Source of the DNA: a virus
Lineage: Duplodnaviria > Heunggongvirae > Uroviricota > Caudoviricetes
Virus record (IMG/VR): IMGVR_UViG_3300014208_000030
Span: 40,076-104,075 of that record
Length of the DNA: 64,000 nt
Direction: 5' to 3' (one strand)
The position numbers were made by a program, and so were the translations under genes. Positions 29,584 to 39,738 of the stretch are shown one piece after another (within the stretch, counting starts at the first letter, position 1; the number at the start of each line of letters is the position of its first letter). Below the pieces are notes generated by a model. The model worked only from the letters and a program-made list of their open reading frames with translations, had not been told where the DNA came from and did no database searches.

Positions 29584-31314
29584 TTATAGAGCCCTATTCA
29601 TCACAAAAGCGGCCTGTCCGCAGTCATACAGCTTTCTATACCCATTATCAAACATATTCTGTGTAGACGATTTCGATTCATCGAAGTGCTTGATTTTATC
29701 CTGCAACTTATGGCGCTGAAATTGCATTCTATTATATTCAACGCCATTCTTAACCCAGCGGTATCCGATATCACTGTTGTGTGAAAATTCAAACCCAAGT
29801 ACCTCATATATTTTCCCTGTAGAATATCTTCGGTCGGCATAGGTAATTATCGATATTGGATTGTTATCTCTAATAAACTTAGAAAATAGTCTAGATGCAC
29901 CACCAACCACATTAGTATTCATTTTTGTGGCAATCCTAATAATTTCGTAACTGTATGCTTGATTATATCTGGGGCGACCAAAGCTAATCATACACACATA
30001 TTCACCGCCATATAATAGACCATAGCATATAGTACTGTTTGCATACCCTTGTATATGGTTGTCACCAAAAAATATTTTTTGTTCTTCTTTTGTGACCACA
30101 GCAATAGTGCATTTTCTAGCAAATATTTTTTCTGCTGTGATTCCGAGCTTGTTTAATATCATAGATTTCACTATAGGCTGCTTACTATTCCATTCTAGAC
30201 AGGTAAAATGTAATAGCGTAATATCGCGCTTTGCGCATTCTTCTGTTTTATATAGGTGCTTCTTCCTGTTTTCTACAGTATCCCTAGATTCCTCGACCGA
30301 ATGCCAATATACTCCATTCAACTCAATAGCAATTTTCTTATCCGGTATATATACATCTAGTTCCAATGGAGTAAGTATGCTCCTACATGAATTAATATAG
30401 GATATTCCTACCCCGCTAAGGAACTCCCCGATCTCATATTCTGGTGTAGACATTTTATAGTCATGAACTATTGGTATATTGTGATCATGCAAATACCGTA
30501 ATACGGTTTTGTGGGTACATAATAATTCATTAGCAATAGATGTACTCGATCTATTTTTATCACTGTACTGCTCACGCATCCATACGCCATCTTCCAGATA
30601 TTGTATGGCGTCTATATTATTAATCTGGGCTACTGCATTAGTTTTTAATTTAATGTTATTTTTGGTTAGCTCAGCTCTTACGGGTCCCCCATCGCAGAAT
30701 CCAAGTTCGTTTGCAATGGATATTGCCGATCTATTTTTTGTTACATATTGATCACTCAACCATGCTATATCATATAGCAAATCCCTATTAACATTTTGCG
30801 CCTTAGCTTCCGATGGGTTTCTTGCATCTATCTTGTGTGTGCGGAGCCAGTTAGATATAGTAACTGGCGTGCAGCCTATTTCCTTGCCTATGGTTGTGGT
30901 ACTTTTGCCTAGGGTGATATACTGCTCATATAGCCAATCTCGATCTTCCACATATGCTGCCCCAATATTATTGGCCTCGCTAAGTGATCTGATTTCAATC
31001 TCATGTTGCGTCAGATATGACGCAACCATAGTGGACGAGCAGTCTAATTCCTTGCCTATAGTCGGGGTACTTTTTCGTAGGGTAATATATTGCTCATGTA
31101 GCCACTCTTTGTTCTCCAGATACTCCAGAGCATTAGTGTGCATTGACTTAGCTTCCTTTGCACTGCGAACCGCTATCCCATATCTCTTTAGTACATTGCC
31201 AACATAGGAGTGACTGCATCCTACCTCTTTTGCTATGTCTGGTGTAGTTCTTTTGTTTGTAATGTACTGCTCTTCTAACCAATCTTTATCAATTGCTATT
31301 CCTACTCGTGCCAT
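29584..31314 (-). CDS. Hef-like homing endonuclease (HTH repeats + PD-(D/E)xK-like nuclease + GNAT-like domain)
   Basis: Five WLxEQY...IAxELGCS repeats; ELDVYIPDKKIAIELNGVYWH; IFARKC...NHIQG...VGGASRLF...YADRRYS.G. Confidence 0.75.
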   Translation of the reverse strand: MARVGIAIDKDWLEEQYITNKRTTPDIAKEVGCSHSYVGNVLKRYGIAVRSAKEAKSMHTNALEYLENKEWLHEQYITLRKSTPTIGKELDCSSTMVASYLTQHEIEIRSLSEANNIGAAYVEDRDWLYEQYITLGKSTTTIGKEIGCTPVTISNWLRTHKIDARNPSEAKAQNVNRDLLYDIAWLSDQYVTKNRSAISIANELGFCDGGPVRAELTKNNIKLKTNAVAQINNIDAIQYLEDGVWMREQYSDKNRSSTSIANELLCTHKTVLRYLHDHNIPIVHDYKMSTPEYEIGEFLSGVGISYINSCRSILTPLELDVYIPDKKIAIELNGVYWHSVEESRDTVENRKKHLYKTEECAKRDITLLHFTCLEWNSKQPIVKSMILNKLGITAEKIFARKCTIAVVTKEEQKIFFGDNHIQGYANSTICYGLLYGGEYVCMISFGRPRYNQAYSYEIIRIATKMNTNVVGGASRLFSKFIRDNNPISIITYADRRYSTGKIYEVLGFEFSHNSDIGYRWVKNGVEYNRMQFQRHKLQDKIKHFDESKSSTQNMFDNGYRKLYDCGQAAFVMNRAL

Positions 31315-31407
31315 TTATTTGCCCATATCCATCTGTTAATTATTATTGTTGCCATTATACCATATCCATAAGAAAACACAAGGATAAATACTCATATACT
31401 AACAAAG

Positions 31408-33309
31408 ATGCGAGTTTACTATCTAATGACACGAAAATCATCAAAACAGCGCAAAGGGAATTATGGCGTTGACATTGGTAGCAATATCAAGATCGAGGCT
31501 CCGTCTCCGGTCACCCCGATGTCAGACGATGGCGCTGCACACATAACTGGCGTCAACTCCTATTTTGGCTCAACCTACCTGAGCATGGATGGCTCAAGCA
31601 GCGGCGATCAAGAACTGATCAAGCGCTACCGAACATTATCCCAATATACTGAAGTCGATTTAGCCATCGATAACATCGTAAACGAATCTATTGTCTACGA
31701 TACCGGCACTTTTCCAGTCTCCTTAAATTTAGACAAACTCCCATTAGCAAAGGCAGTCAAGCTGGCAATCATGGATGAGTTTGCAGAAATTCTAAAACTG
31801 CTCAAATTTGACGAAAAATCATATGCTATCTTCAGACGCTGGTACGTTGATGGTCGTATATATTTCAATGCTATTGTCGATGAAAAGAACCCACAGTCTG
31901 GCATTCTTGAGCTACGCCCAGTCGATGCCCTGAAAATTAAGAAGGTCAAAGAATTTACCAAGGCAAAGGATGCTAATGGTATCGAATATGTGCAATCGGT
32001 ACAGGAATATTTTCTCTATTCCGAAAGTGCTTTCGTGGCATCGACTGCCCAGAGCAATAGTGCGACCAATAATACGGTAAATGGCATCAAGTTTAATGTC
32101 GACGCTATTATCGAAGCAAGTTCTGGCGTCATCGATGAGACAACAAAAAGTGTCCTATCCCACCTGCATAAAGCGATTCGCCCAGCAAACCAATTAAGGA
32201 TGCTGGAAGATGCTGTCGTCATCTATAAGATTGCACGGGCACCAGAGAGGCGCATATTCTATATCGATGTTGGGAACCTGCCAAAAATGAAGGCCGAGGA
32301 GCATCTCCGCGATGTAATGAACCGGTACCGGAACAAGATTGTCTATGATGGTGTCAATGGCGAAATCAAGGACGACAAAAAGTTCATGAGCATGCTAGAA
32401 GATTTCTGGATGCCAAGACGAGAAGGCGGCAAAGGTACTGAAATCACTACATTACCAGGTGCTAACCCATCATTCACCGACATGGTTGATGTTGACTACT
32501 TCAAAACCAAGCTCTACTACGCACTGAACGTCCCATTGTCTAGATTGATGTCTCAGTCTGGCTTTAACATGGGTAGAAGCAGCGAAATCACCCGAGATGA
32601 AGTGAACTTCATGAAGTTTGTGTTCAGGTTGCAGAAGCGATTCTCCTTCCTATTCCTAGATGCCCTGAAGCTGCAATTGACGCTGAAGGGCATCATCAAT
32701 GGTGATGAGTGGGAGTTCATCAAAGAGCGAATCGTCGTGCAATTTGAGAAGGATAACTACTTCGAAGAGTTGAAATACAACGAAATTCTCACGAACCGTA
32801 TTCAAACTGCCGAAGCACTTGAGCCTTATGTCGGCAAATACTTCTCGCATGATTTTGTTAGAAAACAAATATTCAAACAGACCGATGAAATAGTTGATGA
32901 GATGGATGCAACAATCATAGCCGAGTTCGATAACCCAATTTACTACCCACCAATGGCCGGTGCCGATGATATGCAAGATGGCGGTACTGATGCTGGCGAT
33001 GGCGAGGATACCGGTGGTGGCAGTGCATCACCAACCGGCGAAACCGGCAAAATGACTCTGGCCGATGTCGAGCACAAGATGTCAAAGGTCATGAACACAG
33101 TTATTGCCGGTAAGATTATCCAGATCACTAAGAAGGGTAAGGTCATTGCTAAGATCACCCCAGCCAATGAGAGCCTGAACGAATCTTATGATGAGGTCAG
33201 GATCAGCAGCATCGATGGGCTAGATAACTTGATTGAGTGCATGGCTGTCGGCGAAACGCTGACTTTGTCAGAAAACGGCAACACTTTCGTCAACATCCAG
33301 AAAGTCTAA
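31408..33309 (+). CDS. 20: Portal protein gp20 with C-terminal extension
   Basis: FRRWYVDGRIY, LHKAIRPANQLRMLEDAVVIY..ARAPERRIFYIDVGNLPK.KAE, EDFWMPRREGGKGTEITTLPG; GATAAATA upstream. Confidence 0.97.
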   Translation: MRVYYLMTRKSSKQRKGNYGVDIGSNIKIEAPSPVTPMSDDGAAHITGVNSYFGSTYLSMDGSSSGDQELIKRYRTLSQYTEVDLAIDNIVNESIVYDTGTFPVSLNLDKLPLAKAVKLAIMDEFAEILKLLKFDEKSYAIFRRWYVDGRIYFNAIVDEKNPQSGILELRPVDALKIKKVKEFTKAKDANGIEYVQSVQEYFLYSESAFVASTAQSNSATNNTVNGIKFNVDAIIEASSGVIDETTKSVLSHLHKAIRPANQLRMLEDAVVIYKIARAPERRIFYIDVGNLPKMKAEEHLRDVMNRYRNKIVYDGVNGEIKDDKKFMSMLEDFWMPRREGGKGTEITTLPGANPSFTDMVDVDYFKTKLYYALNVPLSRLMSQSGFNMGRSSEITRDEVNFMKFVFRLQKRFSFLFLDALKLQLTLKGIINGDEWEFIKERIVVQFEKDNYFEELKYNEILTNRIQTAEALEPYVGKYFSHDFVRKQIFKQTDEIVDEMDATIIAEFDNPIYYPPMAGADDMQDGGTDAGDGEDTGGGSASPTGETGKMTLADVEHKMSKVMNTVIAGKIIQITKKGKVIAKITPANESLNESYDEVRISSIDGLDNLIECMAVGETLTLSENGNTFVNIQKV

Positions 33310-33333: not shown

Positions 33334-34203
33334 ATGGAAACAGAAATCATAGATGCGCCAGAACAGTTACTCGAATCACTGCGCTCACAGAAATCATATG
33401 CCCAGATGCAGGCGCATATCTCTACAGCACCGGATAATCATTTCGAGCACAATGCCAGATCAATTTTGAAGCATGGGCTGGGCAACGATGACCACGCACA
33501 GAATGATTATGCCAGACACGCGGTGCTGTTTGATCATCGACTCACCGACAAGCATCTTGACGACATTAGCCAACATGTTGCTTCCGCTGGGAAGACTACA
33601 AACACGGTGGATAAAAATTTCCACAAGAATGTTAATTCAGTTGGTGTGCTCCGCGCAGCACTGAAAAATGATTCACCTGACGTTATTGCCGATGCAAAGA
33701 AAAGCATCACGGCAGATCACAAGAATGCCATCTTTGCGCATGGGTCACACGAAGAGAAAGCATTCGTCATCCATCACGGAATGGCAAACAAAACACAGTT
33801 GAGAACAGCACTGACCAGCGGCAACGATGCATTGGCAGCGGTGGCTAAATCCCATCTCCAGTCGCTGAGAGATTCTGGTAGCACTAAACACGGCGACCTA
33901 CAAGATGAGCATTTACCAAAACTAAAGGCTGCATCTTCTACCGGTTCGTTTTTCTCTAGGCTTAAGGACAAGTTTAAAGAAAATCTCGGCAAGCGTATGG
34001 CAGCGGCTGCAGCTGCTCCGAAAGAACGCAAAGACCCAACTTTCGAAGAAGTTCTCGATGGTATTTTGGGTACCATTGCCACCAGAAATTTGCATGAAGC
34101 AACCCAACTGTTGCGCGTTGCCTTGTCGGAAAAAGCCGCAGAAAAGACTACATTGATGAAGCAAGAACTCATTGACGCTAAATATAACAACGTAAACAAA
34201 TAA
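33334..34203 (+). CDS. Prohead core/internal protein with C-terminal gp67-like helix
   Basis: Between 20 and 21; C-terminal ILGTIATRNLHEATQLLRVALSEKAAEK...KQEL; His-rich N-terminal domain. Confidence 0.55.
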   Translation: METEIIDAPEQLLESLRSQKSYAQMQAHISTAPDNHFEHNARSILKHGLGNDDHAQNDYARHAVLFDHRLTDKHLDDISQHVASAGKTTNTVDKNFHKNVNSVGVLRAALKNDSPDVIADAKKSITADHKNAIFAHGSHEEKAFVIHHGMANKTQLRTALTSGNDALAAVAKSHLQSLRDSGSTKHGDLQDEHLPKLKAASSTGSFFSRLKDKFKENLGKRMAAAAAAPKERKDPTFEEVLDGILGTIATRNLHEATQLLRVALSEKAAEKTTLMKQELIDAKYNNVNK

Positions 34204-34216
34204 CTGGGCTATTAAC

Positions 34217-34816
34217 ATGGAAAAAATATTTTTCGACATCGAGAGCGGCAACCTTGCGGATGCCAAAGAAGGTGTTGCTGCTGCCTTGGCAGAAAAGATC
34301 GCAGACAGGATGAAATCGATGAAGCAAGAGATTGCTGGCTCAATTTATAGAGAATCTGTTGATGAGCCCATTGCGGAGATAGGCACTACGTCTATTACCG
34401 AAGGTTGTATTCCGGAAGAAGACAAACTTAAAGCAGTACAGCGCAAAGCAAAATCCGTACCGGTAAAAGCACCACAACTCAAAGATGGTGACGATAAGCT
34501 CATTGATGCTGCAGTTGCGGCACCTAAAGTTAAAGAAGGTCTGGATGAAGCCGATGGCATCTACCACGAAACTTATCGCGGTGCCTTAGAGCATGCCTAT
34601 ACCCACGCCAAGAGCAGAGGTTACGACATCCATGACGAAGACCATCACAAAGATACTTCATTTGTCGATCCAAAGCCAGCGAATGGCAGCACAAAAAGAC
34701 TGAGCTTCCCATTATCGAAAGATGGGGTATTGCAGAAAAAACAGATGCATGTTCAGGTCTACAACCGCGGTGCCGATGTAAAAAATAGGTACGAAGTTAA
34801 TAAATACATTTCATAA
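34217..34816 (+). CDS. gp67-like prohead core protein with C-terminal extra domain
   Basis: IESGNLADAKE.VAAALAEKIADRM..MKQEIA resembles gp67; LxE sites precede the C-terminal domain. Confidence 0.6.
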   Translation: MEKIFFDIESGNLADAKEGVAAALAEKIADRMKSMKQEIAGSIYRESVDEPIAEIGTTSITEGCIPEEDKLKAVQRKAKSVPVKAPQLKDGDDKLIDAAVAAPKVKEGLDEADGIYHETYRGALEHAYTHAKSRGYDIHDEDHHKDTSFVDPKPANGSTKRLSFPLSKDGVLQKKQMHVQVYNRGADVKNRYEVNKYIS

Positions 34817-34831
34817 GCCGAGGAAAATCTA

Positions 34832-35488
34832 ATGGCAGTAATGTTAGCAGAAATAAACGAATCGGTAGAGACACTTACCGAAAAGATTGAAGGTGGTGCC
34901 AAGAAATATACTATTGCCGGTATTTTTATGCAATCCGAGGCTGTGAACCATAATGGCAGAATATACCCGAAGCATTTGATGGAGCGGGAAGTTGCGCTCT
35001 ACACTGCCGAAAAGGTACTCAAAAATCAAGCTCTCGGAGAATTAAACCACCCAGCCAATCGAGTAAGTGTCGACCCAAGAGAGGCATCTCACCTGATCAC
35101 GGAACTGAGTTGGGATGGGAATGATGTACGTGGTGTAGCCAAAATTCTGGATACCCCATGCGGCAAGATTGTTAAAGCCTTAATGGATGAACAAGTAAGT
35201 TTTGGTGTATCTAGCCGAGCACTAGGGAGCCTCAGAAAGAGACAAGATGGTATCAACGAAGTGCAGAATGATTTTTCTCTGAAGTGTGTTGACATCGTAT
35301 CATCGCCGAGCGCTCATGGTGCATGGATGCAATCTATCATGGAAGGTAAGGAGTGGACTTGCGTAGATGGTATCTGGTCGGAACAAAACATCGACGAAGC
35401 AAAGTCTGCCATTCGCAGAGCGCCTAAAGCCCAAATTGAAATCAGGCTAGAAGAAGAATTCACCAAGTTTATGAATTCGTTCAAATAA
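34832..35488 (+). CDS. 21: Prohead protease gp21
   Basis: GIFMQSE..N.NGRIYP, ALGELNHP, GVSSRALGSL, DIVSSPSA. Confidence 0.95.
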   Translation: MAVMLAEINESVETLTEKIEGGAKKYTIAGIFMQSEAVNHNGRIYPKHLMEREVALYTAEKVLKNQALGELNHPANRVSVDPREASHLITELSWDGNDVRGVAKILDTPCGKIVKALMDEQVSFGVSSRALGSLRKRQDGINEVQNDFSLKCVDIVSSPSAHGAWMQSIMEGKEWTCVDGIWSEQNIDEAKSAIRRAPKAQIEIRLEEEFTKFMNSFK

Positions 35489-37950: not shown

Positions 37951-39738
37951 TTACTCCGATACCCACCTCAACCTATATTTTCCAGAATCATATATTCTAT
38001 AGATATTGTTCACCAGCGCCAATTCGTGCTCAGTCTTATTCTCATCAAACTTAAGCTGTGGGTCGGTGGCAAATCTACTTTTTCTGTAATTGAATTTATG
38101 GTACCGCTTATCGTTAACAACATATTTGTAGTCTGGTCTTAGGTATGCATCTATAACAAACCCAACCTTAATATATGCATCGCCGGTGAACATATCCAGA
38201 TCAACAAAGGATATAACCTCAGATAATCTAGATGCTTTCAGTAATTTCCCAAACCCGCCAATAACTTTTTTTGTTGTTGCGTATCTAGTGAGTACATTCC
38301 CATGAAACAACATCACCGCCACAGTTTCTCCGCTATACTCCAATGTCATGCGACTGGTGCTACCGGCATTACCCTGTATGTGGTGCGCATCTAATATATC
38401 CTTACACACCTCTTTGTCTGGCCTTCGATTGATAGTACACTTCCTAGCAAATATGCGATCATCGCCAGTTAGTCCCATTGCATTTAATAGGAATCTTTTT
38501 ATTACATCGAACTTATATATGATGTCGTCCTCATATAGGTGTATCAATCGAATACCAACATCAGCGCACTTGAGTCTCTTCATCTCATGATATGCGTTGT
38601 CTTTATATACTTCGCTGTGCCAATAAACCCCATTTACCTCTATTGCCATGTTGAGTGATGGTATGTAGATATCCAACTCATATGGAGTAATTATCGATGT
38701 TACCGAACACTCAAATTCTATGCTATGTTCCTCTAAAAATTCTCTGAGTTTACGTTCATGCGAGGATACAGAATATCTAGTAGAAATATCTATGTTATGA
38801 CTTTTCAGATATCTACCAACTGTTCCGTCGGAGCACCCTAACTCTGCAGCCAGTTCATATGTTGATTTGCCCAGTGTAGTGTATTGCTCTTCTAGCCATG
38901 CGCTGTCTCGCAATAGATTTAGTGCGGCGACATTTTCTCCAAACCTAGCTTCAGTTAGGTTCCTAATCACAATATCGTGCTGTCGAAGATAGCTACGCAC
39001 AGTTCTAGGTGAGCAGTTTAGGTCTGCGCCTATGTCTTCCAGTGATCTCATTTTTATTAGATACTGATCTTCTAACCATTCCTTATTAGTGAGCGCGTCG
39101 GCAGTCGTTGTACTAAGCTGATTATCCGATCCACTCCTAGCAGTAATATTATGTTGCTTTAGGTACCGAGATACTACCCCTTTATTAGAACCTATTTCTG
39201 TGGCAATGTTATCTAATGTCCTTCCATCTTTTATGTATGCGGCATACAGCCAATCATAGTCTTCCAAATACACTAATACATCAATATTGGACTTGTTGTA
39301 TTGTCTGTCGGGTATATCATGGATAGCTAACCACCTATTAACAGGACCTATGCTACACCCAAGCTCTTCGGCAATGGTTTCCTTCGATTTCTTCTGGGCA
39401 ATTCTCTGCGCATACAGCCAATCTTTATCGGAAAGTTTAGCCAATATACCACTATCGACTGTTTTGTTCGACCTTGAGCACGTAGGGGAGCAGAATTGGG
39501 TAAATCCAAGCTTATTATCTTTCTTGTTCGCCATTACCGGCTCACCACAGACGCAGGACGGCAGTTCACCAATATTATTGGTTACGCAATAAAAACGGGT
39601 GGTCAGGGATGGTGCTATGGGATCGAGGAATTTGGTCGCGGATGTAAGACTAGCTACAAAATCTGCATGCTTGTTTCCCTTACAAACTTTCTGTGGTGTT
39701 AATTCGGTGCAGCTATTTTTTAATGCTTGGTCGTACAT
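37951..39738 (-). CDS. Second Hef-like homing endonuclease
   Basis: N-terminal CVCG...FCSPTC Zn motif, four HTH repeats, ELDIYIPS...AIEVNGVYWH, IFARKC, degenerate GNAT-like tail. Confidence 0.75.
   Translation of the reverse strand: MYDQALKNSCTELTPQKVCKGNKHADFVASLTSATKFLDPIAPSLTTRFYCVTNNIGELPSCVCGEPVMANKKDNKLGFTQFCSPTCSRSNKTVDSGILAKLSDKDWLYAQRIAQKKSKETIAEELGCSIGPVNRWLAIHDIPDRQYNKSNIDVLVYLEDYDWLYAAYIKDGRTLDNIATEIGSNKGVVSRYLKQHNITARSGSDNQLSTTTADALTNKEWLEDQYLIKMRSLEDIGADLNCSPRTVRSYLRQHDIVIRNLTEARFGENVAALNLLRDSAWLEEQYTTLGKSTYELAAELGCSDGTVGRYLKSHNIDISTRYSVSSHERKLREFLEEHSIEFECSVTSIITPYELDIYIPSLNMAIEVNGVYWHSEVYKDNAYHEMKRLKCADVGIRLIHLYEDDIIYKFDVIKRFLLNAMGLTGDDRIFARKCTINRRPDKEVCKDILDAHHIQGNAGSTSRMTLEYSGETVAVMLFHGNVLTRYATTKKVIGGFGKLLKASRLSEVISFVDLDMFTGDAYIKVGFVIDAYLRPDYKYVVNDKRYHKFNYRKSRFATDPQLKFDENKTEHELALVNNIYRIYDSGKYRLRWVSE

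What the first reader, a model, noticed from the sequence alone, without database searches (positions are those of the whole stretch)
33052..33309. Portal protein gp20 carries two tandem Phd/YefM-antitoxin-like modules at its C-terminus
Seen: after the normal portal end and a D/G-rich linker, gp20 continues for about 85 aa. The first part is MTLADVEHKMSKVMNTVIAGKIIQITKKGKVIAKITPA (33052-33165), then NESLNES, then YDEVRISSIDGLDNLIECMAVGETLTLSENGNTFVNIQKV. Established: the first part fits the Phd/YefM DNA-binding pattern (EAK..LS.LL..V..GE.I.IT+.GKPVA.L.P), and the second looks like a degenerate copy. T4 gp20 C-terminal fusions end up inside the head, and gp21 cleaves after L/I-x-E. Inference: this may be a single-chain pseudo-dimeric DNA-binding or antitoxin-mimic unit on the portal crown. 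It could grip packaged DNA, or be released at LNE and ejected to neutralise host TA/Abi toxins. I know of no described example.
Basis: partly seen in the sequence, partly recalled or inferred. Interest (0 to 1): 0.82.

Follow-up and report, generated by a model that had tools for sequence, protein, structure and literature searches.

The report
Portal protein with antitoxin-fold tail
A clade of uncultured T4-like phages has added to the inner end of its portal protein a small doubled domain with the fold of the DNA-binding half of Phd/YefM antitoxins; the addition is real and conserved, but it lacks what an antitoxin needs and is most likely a structural part of the head interior.

Summary
The portal ORF (31408..33309, 633 aa) runs without a stop from a full T4-type portal, through a 33-residue acidic Gly/Asp/Ser tether, into about 85 further residues.

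- **Distribution:** the same tail is found on 22 portal clusters. They form one clade (SH-aLRT 100). None of 99 nearest tail-less portals has it, and no deposited phage genome does.
- **Module 1 (549-586):** a remote Phd/YefM N-domain homologue under strong purifying selection (pN 0.03-0.06, pS 0.57-0.68). The window's copy scores 16.8 bits against a Pfam cut-off of 29.8, while a clade member reaches 30.8. The top PDB, Foldseek, AFDB and Atlas matches are all Phd, YefM or VapB46.
- **Module 2 (597-633):** a diverged, acidic copy. The profile-profile score exceeds all 200 shuffled controls.
- **Pairing:** a controlled complex prediction pairs the two modules like a YefM dimer (0.62, best control 0.01). 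AlphaFold2 single-chain models do not confirm this (pTM 0.33).
- **Not an antitoxin:** there is no toxin-binding segment and no toxin gene, the DNA-reading Arg is Glu, and the tether has no conserved protease motif, so module 1 probably stays on the portal.
- **Cleavage:** a [LI]xE motif between the modules (17 of 19 tails) may be a gp21 site or a remnant of helix α3.

Best reading: a tethered accessory domain at the portal crown.

The parts
31408..33309 (+). Portal gene (gp20 homologue) with C-terminal extension. The longest ORF is 633 aa. The likely start is 31426 (627 aa).
   Evidence: Pfam Portal_T4 545 bits and PHROG 213 portal. The database form P0002 starts at Met7.
31609..32916 (+). 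T4-type portal core (residues 68-503).
   Evidence: PF07230, E 1.1e-163.
32953..33051 (+). Acidic Gly/Asp/Ser/Thr tether after the conserved IYYPP (residues 516-548).
   Evidence: In 19 relatives the stretch from IYYPP to the start of module 1 is 31-45 residues, with 4-9 Asp+Glu and 0-4 Lys+Arg. Its sequence is poorly conserved (25-55% identity) and no conserved [LI]xE motif was seen when the printed tethers were read by eye.
33052..33165 (+). Module 1 (residues 549-586): Phd/YefM N-domain-like, Lys-rich, net charge +2 to +6 across the clade.
   Evidence: PF02604 scores 16.8 bits here and 30.8 bits in P0027. PDB profile hits are VapB46 (E 0.0067) and Phd (E 0.0096). AF2 gives H551-566, E571-575, E578-583. 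Top Foldseek hit is 6jqy. pN is 0.03-0.06 against pS 0.57-0.68.
33166..33195 (+). Inter-module linker NESLNESYDE (residues 587-596), with LNE|S at 33175..33183.
   Evidence: pLDDT is below 50 in both AF2 models. [LI]xE is present in 17 of 19 tails against 5.2 expected from shuffles. Glu588 is invariant.
33196..33306 (+). Module 2 (residues 597-633): a diverged copy, neutral to acidic (net charge -5 to +1).
   Evidence: AF2 gives H605-611, E617-622, E625/626-631. hhalign against module 1 scores 15.7-16.2, and 0 of 200 column-shuffled controls reach that.
34832..35488 (+). Prohead protease (gp21 homologue), the enzyme that would cut any [LI]xE site.
   Evidence: PF03420 Peptidase_S77, E 2.6e-41.

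Best explanation
**Architecture (shown or predicted).** The last ~85 residues are a genuine, translated and selectively maintained domain. The ancestor of one clade of uncultured T4-like phages gained it once. It consists of two ~38-residue helix-hairpin modules.
- Module 1 is a remote homologue of the dimerisation and DNA-binding N-domain of Phd/YefM antitoxins.
- Module 2 is a diverged, acidic copy.
- The two are predicted to pair through their last strands and helices, as two YefM protomers do. That would give a pseudo-dimer within one chain, or between neighbouring subunits.

**Location (from established knowledge).** The domain hangs on a flexible acidic tether from the crown. Twelve copies should therefore sit inside the head at the inner mouth of the portal channel.

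**Function (inference).** It is not an antitoxin. It most likely acts as an accessory of the portal crown. The conserved Lys-rich face of module 1 (the TKKGK hairpin and the helix start) would contact a polyanion there. In the filled head that would be packaged DNA, and in the prohead possibly the acidic scaffold core. The effect would be on genome anchoring or retention, or on core nucleation.
For: **Real and conserved.**
- The reading frame is continuous in the window and in at least 21 other portal clusters.
- Tail-bearing portals lie on one side of a branch with SH-aLRT 100, and 0 of 99 tail-less relatives match the tail HMM.
- Module 1 has pN 0.03-0.06 against pS 0.57-0.68, and is as conserved as the portal core.

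**Phd/YefM likeness of module 1.**
- PF02604 hits 14 of 19 tails. P0027 reaches 30.8 bits against the cut-off of 29.8.
- The top five PDB profile hits are all VapB46 or Phd.
- The top Foldseek PDB hit is the VapB46 N-domain (probability 0.99, TM by target 0.62, but E 0.23).
- Nearly all named AFDB hits and most of the listed Atlas clusters are Phd-family.

**Module 2 as a copy.** The in-register hhalign score is 15.7, and 0 of 200 shuffled controls reach it.

**Pairing.** Score 0.62, best of 3 controls 0.01. That mark was reached by 58 of 80 solved complexes and 2 of 110 mismatched pairs; these counts hold only roughly, because my own alignments were used. The runs agree in at least 84% of contacts, and the partner's pLDDT is at least 74.
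- The interface is 579-586 antiparallel to 626-633, plus module-1 positions 13, 14, 17, 20, 21, 28 and 30.
- This mirrors the YefM dimer, which uses β3-β3' hydrogen bonds plus Leu13, Leu16, Val20, Val27 and Val29 (PMC7544224).
- YefM and Phd dimers are solved, so the pass may reflect that likeness from memory.

**Location.** The T4 crown is the innermost part of the portal, with a disordered C-terminus (PMC4493910). The crown touches DNA in full heads, and C-terminal GFP fusions are tolerated (PMC9958956).

**Basic hairpin.** It is kept in all 19 tails, with Lys575-Lys576-Gly-Lys578 aligned to Arg30-Arg31-Gly-Arg33 of Phd.
Against: - AlphaFold2 folded the 88 residues twice with pTM 0.32-0.33. 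Its model matches known folds only through module 1. The pseudo-dimer therefore rests on one ESM-family method, ESMFold2.
- All E-values for the window's own copy are weak: Pfam 0.006 and PDB 0.1.
- The residue aligned with the DNA-reading Arg10 of YefM and Phd is Glu555 (Gln in one subclade). R10 is needed for YefM DNA binding (PMC4803016, PMC7544224).
- Module 2 and the tether are acidic, so the pseudo-dimer's would-be DNA face is half acidic.
- Nothing tested here shows binding to DNA or to scaffold. The function is inferred from fold and location only.
Confidence: 0.45

Rival explanations
1. **Protease-processed, assembly-only domain.** The tail works in the prohead, for example by docking the scaffold core or its unusual core proteins on the portal. 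The gp21-type protease then clips it at the [LI]xE motif between the modules during maturation. That would dismantle it or free the acidic stretch that holds module 2.
For: - [LI]xE lies in the inter-module linker in 17 of 19 tails against 5.2 expected. It takes three different forms in different subclades: LNE or LTE, IKE, and INE, IIE or LLE.
- The linker is the only low-confidence stretch of the tail, with pLDDT below 50.
- A Peptidase_S77 protease is encoded 1.5 kb downstream.
- T4 gp21 cuts after L/I-X-E (PMC9026906).
- The major capsid protein has LFE|T near where I recall T4 gp23 being cut (read by eye).
Against: - Two clade members lack the motif: P0019 has VHE and P0021 has FNG.
- The conserved ES[LI]xE aligns with the start of helix α3 of Phd/YefM. 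Pfam matches run to profile positions 50-57, and Phd FEAYKK aligns there. Ancestry alone could therefore explain it.
- In the reviews I read, gp20 is not named among the T4 proteins that gp21 cuts (PMC9026906).
- If the modules share a sheet, a nick need not separate them.
Confidence: 0.2
2. **Neighbour-swapped ring.** Module 1 of one subunit pairs with module 2 of the next. The twelve tails would then form a closed daisy chain that helps to assemble or stabilise the dodecamer, or that extends the channel as the P22 barrel does.
For: - The modules are predicted to bind each other as separate chains (score 0.62, best control 0.01; 58 of 80 solved complexes and 2 of 110 mismatched pairs reached the mark; contact agreement at least 84%; partner pLDDT at least 74). 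The pass may come from memory of solved YefM dimers.
- AF2 does not pack them within one chain.
- The charges are complementary across the clade: module 1 is +2 to +6 and module 2 is -5 to +1.
- The tether is long.
Against: - No oligomer model was run.
- A linker of 10-18 residues also allows pairing within one chain.
- The prediction cannot tell pairing within one chain from pairing between chains.
Confidence: 0.12
3. **The first reader's reading.** The tail is an antitoxin mimic that is released in the head and ejected into the host, where it neutralises toxin-antitoxin or abortive-infection toxins.
For: - The Phd/YefM-type fold.
- A location from which T4 internal proteins are ejected (PMC9026906).
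- A possible protease site in the linker.
Against: - There is no segment after the last strand that could wrap a toxin. In Phd and YefM that job belongs to the C-terminal region after α3 (PMC7544224).
- The tether has no conserved [LI]xE, so module 1 would stay attached to the portal.
- The phage genome has no Fic/Doc, ParE/RelE, PIN or YoeB match.
- There would be only 12 copies per virion.
Confidence: 0.05
4. **Artefact.** Two ORFs were mis-joined, or the extension is a neutral passenger with no function.
For: One short contig (L003) has a TAA in the tether.
Against: - The frame is continuous in every full-length or 5'-truncated relative examined apart from L003.
- The tail was gained once and kept throughout a deep clade.
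- dN is far below dS.
- The Met at the start of module 1 is Ile or Val in several relatives, so there is no conserved internal start.
Confidence: 0.02

Closest known systems
N-terminal domain of Phd/YefM-family antitoxins (P1 Phd: 3HS2, 4ZLX, 4ZM0; YefM; M. tuberculosis VapB46 N-domain: 6JQY; Pfam PF02604)
   Same: Module 1 has the same helix and β-hairpin core and the sequence signature ..S..l..V..G..i.Itk.Gk.vA.i.P. The basic β2-β3 hairpin is kept. The predicted pairing uses the last strands and the same hydrophobic positions as the YefM dimer.
   Different: - Two modules sit in one chain, and helix α3 is reduced to a short linker.
- There is no toxin-binding C-terminal segment, no toxin gene and no operator context.
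- The base-reading Arg10 is Glu.
- The second module is acidic.
- The domain is fused to a virion structural protein.
T4 gp20 portal and its engineered C-terminal fusions (gp20-GFP, gp20-Hoc)
   Same: The portal core is the same family (PF07230, 545 bits). The C-terminus points into the head, and an extra folded domain there is tolerated. GFP at that end alters prohead expansion (PMC9958956, PMC9026906).
   Different: Here the extra domain is natural, sits on all twelve subunits, measures about 10 kDa and is conserved. T4 itself has only eight disordered residues after the crown (PMC4493910).
C-terminal barrel of the P22 portal (gp1)
   Same: It is a lineage-specific C-terminal addition to a portal that projects into the capsid interior (PMC4992974, PMC4493910).
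   Different: The P22 barrel is a long helical coiled coil continuous with the crown. This is a small α/β domain on a flexible acidic tether, with no sequence or fold likeness to the barrel.
Toxin-less and doubled Phd/YefM-fold proteins noted elsewhere in this scan (e1-4416656)
   Same: Two Phd-type N-domains in one chain, with no toxin-binding tail and no toxin.
   Different: Those are free-standing basic proteins read as regulators. This one is appended to a portal and is half acidic. No sequence relationship was found.

Membership tests
Phd/YefM antitoxin family (Pfam PF02604) | Sequence match to the family profile at the curated cut-off (29.8 bits) | tested here: inconclusive
   The window's tail scores 16.8 bits (E 0.006), below the cut-off. 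Homologous tails of the same clade score 30.8 (P0027), 28.5, 28.3, 25.3, 22.2 and 21.0 bits, and 14 of 19 match at E <= 0.1.
Phd/YefM antitoxin family (Pfam PF02604) | N-domain fold (helices followed by the β2-β3 hairpin) | tested here: met
   AF2 gives H6-21, E26-30 and E33-38 with pLDDT about 80. The best Foldseek PDB hits are VapB46 and Phd N-domains (probability 0.99, TM by target 0.62, E 0.23). AFDB and Atlas hits are almost all Phd-family. Strand β1 was not predicted.
Phd/YefM antitoxin family (Pfam PF02604) | Dimer through β3-β3' pairing and a helix/strand hydrophobic core | tested here: inconclusive
   The module 1 to module 2 prediction reproduces this interface (score 0.62, best control 0.01; 58 of 80 solved complexes and 2 of 110 mismatched pairs reached the mark; contact agreement at least 84%; partner pLDDT at least 74). 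The pass may come from memory of solved dimers. AF2 single-chain models give pTM 0.33 and do not place the modules.
Phd/YefM antitoxin family (Pfam PF02604) | C-terminal toxin-neutralising segment after helix α3 | tested here: not met
   The protein ends two residues after the last strand of module 2. α3 is reduced to about 10 residues.
Phd/YefM antitoxin family (Pfam PF02604) | Adjacent cognate toxin gene (Doc/Fic, YoeB, ParE/RelE or PIN) | tested here: not met
   The downstream genes are head-core proteins, protease, scaffold and capsid. The 168-kb genome has no match to PF02661, PF05016, PF01850 or PF06769.
Phd/YefM antitoxin family (Pfam PF02604) | DNA-reading Arg10 in the α1-α2 motif | tested here: not met
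   In the HMMER alignments Phd Gly11 aligns with His556, so Arg10 aligns with Glu555. That column is Glu or Gln in all 19 tails. The role of R10 is described in PMC4803016 and PMC7544224.
T4-type portal protein (Pfam PF07230, PHROG 213) | Full-length match to the portal profile, in the gp19-gp20-gp21-gp22-gp23 gene order | tested here: met
   545 bits over profile positions 2-430 of 433 and PHROG 213 at 625 bits. Protease, scaffold and capsid genes lie downstream, and the same order is seen in L007.
P22-type portal barrel | Long C-terminal helical coiled coil continuous with the crown | tested here: not met
   The tail is predicted as two helix-hairpin modules behind a Gly/Asp/Ser-rich tether. 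No portal-barrel hit appears in the fold searches.

The most novel reading that the evidence does not exclude
**A protease-gated DNA clamp on the portal.** In the prohead the acidic module 2 would cover the Lys-rich module 1, within one chain or between neighbours, which would close a twelve-membered ring. The gp21-type protease would cut the [LI]xE linker at maturation. That would unmask twelve tethered basic modules at the inner mouth of the channel, just before packaging. They would then catch or hold the DNA end, linking maturation to genome anchoring or retention.
Probability: 0.1. Interest if true: 0.75.

Novelty: new variant of a known kind. Interest (0 to 1): 0.55.

Why it matters
Portals are the hub of head assembly, packaging and genome retention. 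Natural additions at their inner end, such as the P22 barrel, have taught much about these steps.

Here a whole clade of T4-like phages carries a folded domain where T4 has only a few disordered residues, and where engineered GFP fusions are known to change prohead expansion. That offers a natural experiment on what the crown does.

It also shows the Phd/YefM N-domain, normally a repressor and dimerisation module of toxin-antitoxin systems, reused in a virion structural protein.

On the practical side, automatic annotation already labels some of these portals as 'antitoxin', which is misleading.

Tried and rejected
- **Deposited phages and viral contigs:** megablast of the gene and tblastn of the tail against 50,697 phage records found nothing. 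Two pattern scans of viral contigs found no relative.
- **P-RSM4 / S-TIM4 match:** the tblastn match appeared to reach query residue 572, but it is read-through of low-complexity sequence into the next gene. That portal ends at 533 aa.
- **P0008:** this 2256-aa repeat adhesin matched residues 56-77 twelve times. It is a chance repeat of a 'LAVGETITLS' strand, not a relative.
- **P0006 and P0007 (75-77 aa):** they looked like stand-alone versions but are fragments at contig ends.
- **Internal start:** rejected. The Met is Ile or Val in several relatives. I saw no ribosome-binding site or TATAAATA ahead of it when reading.
- **Second AlphaFold2 run:** a deeper alignment did not give a compact two-module model, and the Atlas shape search with it matched module 1 only.
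- **Downstream 289-aa protein as partner:** co-occurrence was uninformative. Homologues were seen only in the closest subclade on the short contigs available.
- **Profile search of the own genome:** no second Phd-like domain.
Full report
**What is there.** The window holds the head-gene block of a T4-like phage. It comes from a 168-kb IMG/VR virus record estimated 93% complete. The ORF 31408..33309 (+) gives 633 residues. Relatives and the database form P0002 start at Met7 (31426), which gives 627 aa.
- Pfam Portal_T4 covers residues 68-503 (E 1e-163), and PHROG 213 'portal protein' covers 27-528.
- After the conserved IYYPP comes a 33-residue tether rich in Gly, Asp, Ser and Thr.
The coordinates given are exact.
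- Downstream lie two unassigned proteins, a Peptidase_S77 prohead protease (34832..35488), a T4-type scaffold and the major capsid protein.
- The nearest deposited phages are marine cyanomyoviruses (portal about 50% identical). For the capsid protein they are Methylophilales phage Melnitz at 65% over 82% of the query and cyanomyoviruses at 54-57%.

**Is the fusion real?** Yes.
- A word-indexed search with the C-terminal 114 residues found portals of 621-627 aa with the same tail.
- An exhaustive phmmer of the tail against 1.84 billion representatives found only portal-borne copies, contig-end fragments and one spurious repeat protein.
- A search with the portal core then showed the clade is larger. 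All 22 clusters that are at least 62% identical to residues 300-525 are 620-646 aa or are fragments, and all carry the tail. The next relatives, at 60% identity or less, are 485-569 aa.
- An HMM of the tail hits 22 of 121 portals (E 1e-32 to 1e-41) and none of the other 99.
- I built a maximum-likelihood tree from the portal cores, with tails cut off and fragments P0009, P0010, P0024, the duplicate P0002 and P0008 left out. On it the 20 tail-bearing rows are one side of a branch with SH-aLRT 100. The tree's own warning is that this long branch meets another long branch, so its exact neighbour is unsure.
- Two JGI metagenome contigs add a continuous portal-tail reading (L005) and a 5'-truncated copy (L006).
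- One 1.2-kb contig (L003) has TAA in the tether where P0024 has Gln. This is a single nonsense variant or an error.
- No deposited phage genome has the tail.

**Selection.** I compared the window with L005 and L006.
- Module 1 has pN 0.03-0.06 against pS 0.57-0.68.
- Module 2 has pN 0.21-0.41 with saturated pS.
- In amino-acid identity, module 1 tracks the portal core (52-94% against 57-90%).
- The tether keeps only its composition, and module 2 is the most variable part.

**What fold?**
- *Module 1, sequence evidence.* The window's own tail gives only a sub-threshold PF02604 match (16.8 bits against 29.8). Across the clade 14 of 19 tails match. P0027 passes the cut-off at 30.8 bits, and three more score 25-28.5. 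A profile of the 19 tails finds the VapB46 N-domain (E 0.0067) and four Phd sequences as its top five PDB hits.
- *Module 1, structure evidence.* AlphaFold2 predicts helix 551-566 and strands 571-575 and 578-583 at pLDDT about 80. Foldseek puts the VapB46 and Phd N-domains first in the PDB, with probability 0.99 and TM by target 0.62 but E only 0.23 because the domain is tiny. Nearly all named AFDB cluster hits are 'prevent-host-death' antitoxins. Most of the listed ESM Atlas clusters, by features and by shape, are Phd/YefM clusters, the rest being unnamed or fusion proteins.
- *Weighing it.* These lines are individually weak, but all agree. I take module 1 to be a remote Phd/YefM N-domain homologue.
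- *Module 2.* It has the same predicted helix-hairpin layout. A profile-profile alignment of the two modules is in register and scores 15.7-16.2 (P about 0.002). Two hundred column-shuffled controls average 7.5 and peak at 12.8. A diverged duplicate is the simplest reading.

**Do the modules pair?** I gave them to the controlled complex test as two chains, each with its own alignment.
- The score was 0.62 and the best of 3 controls 0.01. The mark was reached by 58 of 80 solved complexes and 2 of 110 mismatched pairs; these counts hold only roughly, because my own alignments were used.
- The runs agree in at least 84% of contacts, and the partner's pLDDT is at least 74.
- The interface is residues 579-586 antiparallel to 626-633, plus helix and β2 positions 13, 14, 17, 20, 21, 28 and 30 of module 1.
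- That is the published YefM dimer interface: β3-β3' hydrogen bonds plus Leu13, Leu16, Val20, Val27 and Val29 (PMC7544224).
- Because such dimers are solved, the pass shows likeness and may come from memory.
- Against it, AlphaFold2 twice gave pTM 0.32-0.33 for the single chain, and its model matches known folds only through module 1. The ESM Atlas model of the whole protein aligned all 88 residues to a 110-aa Phd/YefM cluster at TM 0.80, but it comes from a related ESM method, so it is not independent.
- The prediction cannot tell pairing within one chain from pairing between neighbouring subunits.

**Why not an antitoxin.** In Phd and YefM the toxin is bound by the C-terminal region after α3 (PMC7544224).
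- Here the chain ends right after the last strand of module 2.
- The genome has no Fic/Doc, ParE/RelE, PIN or YoeB match and no second Phd-like gene.
- None of the 19 tethers has a conserved [LI]xE motif. If the protease has T4-like specificity, module 1 stays on the portal.

**DNA binding?** The basic β2-β3 hairpin is kept in every tail: TKKGK, TKNGK, TKGGK or KRGGK, aligned with Phd Arg30-Arg31-Gly-Arg33. The position aligned with Arg10 is Glu555, or Gln in one subclade. Arg10 reads the operator bases and is essential in YefM (PMC4803016, PMC7544224).
- Module 1 is basic (+2 to +6). Module 2 ranges from -5 to +1, and the tether is acidic.
- Sequence-specific operator binding is therefore unlikely. 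Non-specific contact through the Lys-rich face remains possible.

**The linker motif.** [LI]xE occurs between the modules in 17 of 19 tails against 5.2 expected from shuffling. Its form differs by subclade, and the linker is the low-confidence stretch of both models. T4 gp21 cuts after L/I-X-E (PMC9026906), and the phage encodes that protease. However:
- two members lack the motif;
- the conserved Glu-Ser-[LI] aligns with the start of helix α3 in the Pfam and Phd alignments, so it may be a structural remnant.

**Location and likely role.** In T4 the crown is the innermost portal domain and ends in eight disordered residues (PMC4493910). Crown and wing touch DNA in full heads. C-terminal GFP fusions are incorporated and hold proheads unexpanded until packaging (PMC9958956, PMC9026906).
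- A conserved 10-kDa domain on a tether of 31-45 residues would therefore sit, in twelve copies, at the inner mouth of the channel.
- My best reading is a crown accessory that contacts DNA or the acidic core through module 1.
- The main rivals are protease-processed use in assembly only, and a neighbour-swapped ring.
- None of these functional readings was tested, and they could not be tested with the tools here.

**Novelty.** My searches found no paper describing a Phd/YefM-fold domain on a portal. A jumbo-phage survey mentions Phd domains only in phage transcription factors (PMC7824862). Pipelines have noticed the domain: JGI names some of these portals 'antitoxin', and precomputed PF02604 hits exist on two of them. 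I rate this a new variant of known kinds, namely portals with lineage-specific inner extensions and Phd-fold domains used outside toxin-antitoxin pairs.

Noticed in passing
P0009 (a tail-bearing portal from a metagenome; not in the window): This portal homologue carries an insertion just before the conserved IRPxNQLRMLED block. I read it as an intein: it has LAGLIDADG-like motifs (LIGDGWV, LCDADGC) and ends ...VVHN|C.
   Followed up: no
L003:1-989: An in-frame TAA lies in the portal tether where the near relative P0024 has Gln. The tail frame behind it is intact. A GIY-YIG/NUMOD3 homing-endonuclease gene starts 2 bases after the portal stop.
   Followed up: partly
window 29584-31314 (-) and 37951-39738 (-): Two ORFs of 576 and 595 aa, which I read as paralogues, bracket the gp20-gp23 head module on the opposite strand. 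Each has four or five HTH-like repeats and a shared C-terminal part (ELD[VI]YIP...IAIE[LV]NGVYWHS). Pfam, run on the first only, finds just HTH families. They look like homing-endonuclease-type selfish genes.
   Followed up: partly
window 33334-34816; L007:7870-9582: The two proteins between portal and protease (289 and 199 aa) have no Pfam family. In the most distant tail-bearing subclade the same slot holds a single 570-aa protein with no family either.
   Followed up: partly
P0022, P0023, P0024, P0027: JGI names these whole portal proteins 'antitoxin (DNA-binding transcriptional repressor) of toxin-antitoxin stability system'. The label was carried over from the small tail and is misleading for a 620-aa structural protein.
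   Followed up: yes
L007:409-3147: In a tail-bearing relative the large terminase appears in pieces: a 209-aa Terminase_6N ORF, a 161-aa ORF with no family, then a 546-aa Terminase_6N+6C ORF.
   Followed up: no
window 31383-31426: GATAAATA, one base off the T4 late-promoter consensus as I recall it, lies 18 bases before the first ATG of the portal ORF. Two in-frame ATGs (31408 and 31426) compete as the start, and relatives favour the second.
   Followed up: partly
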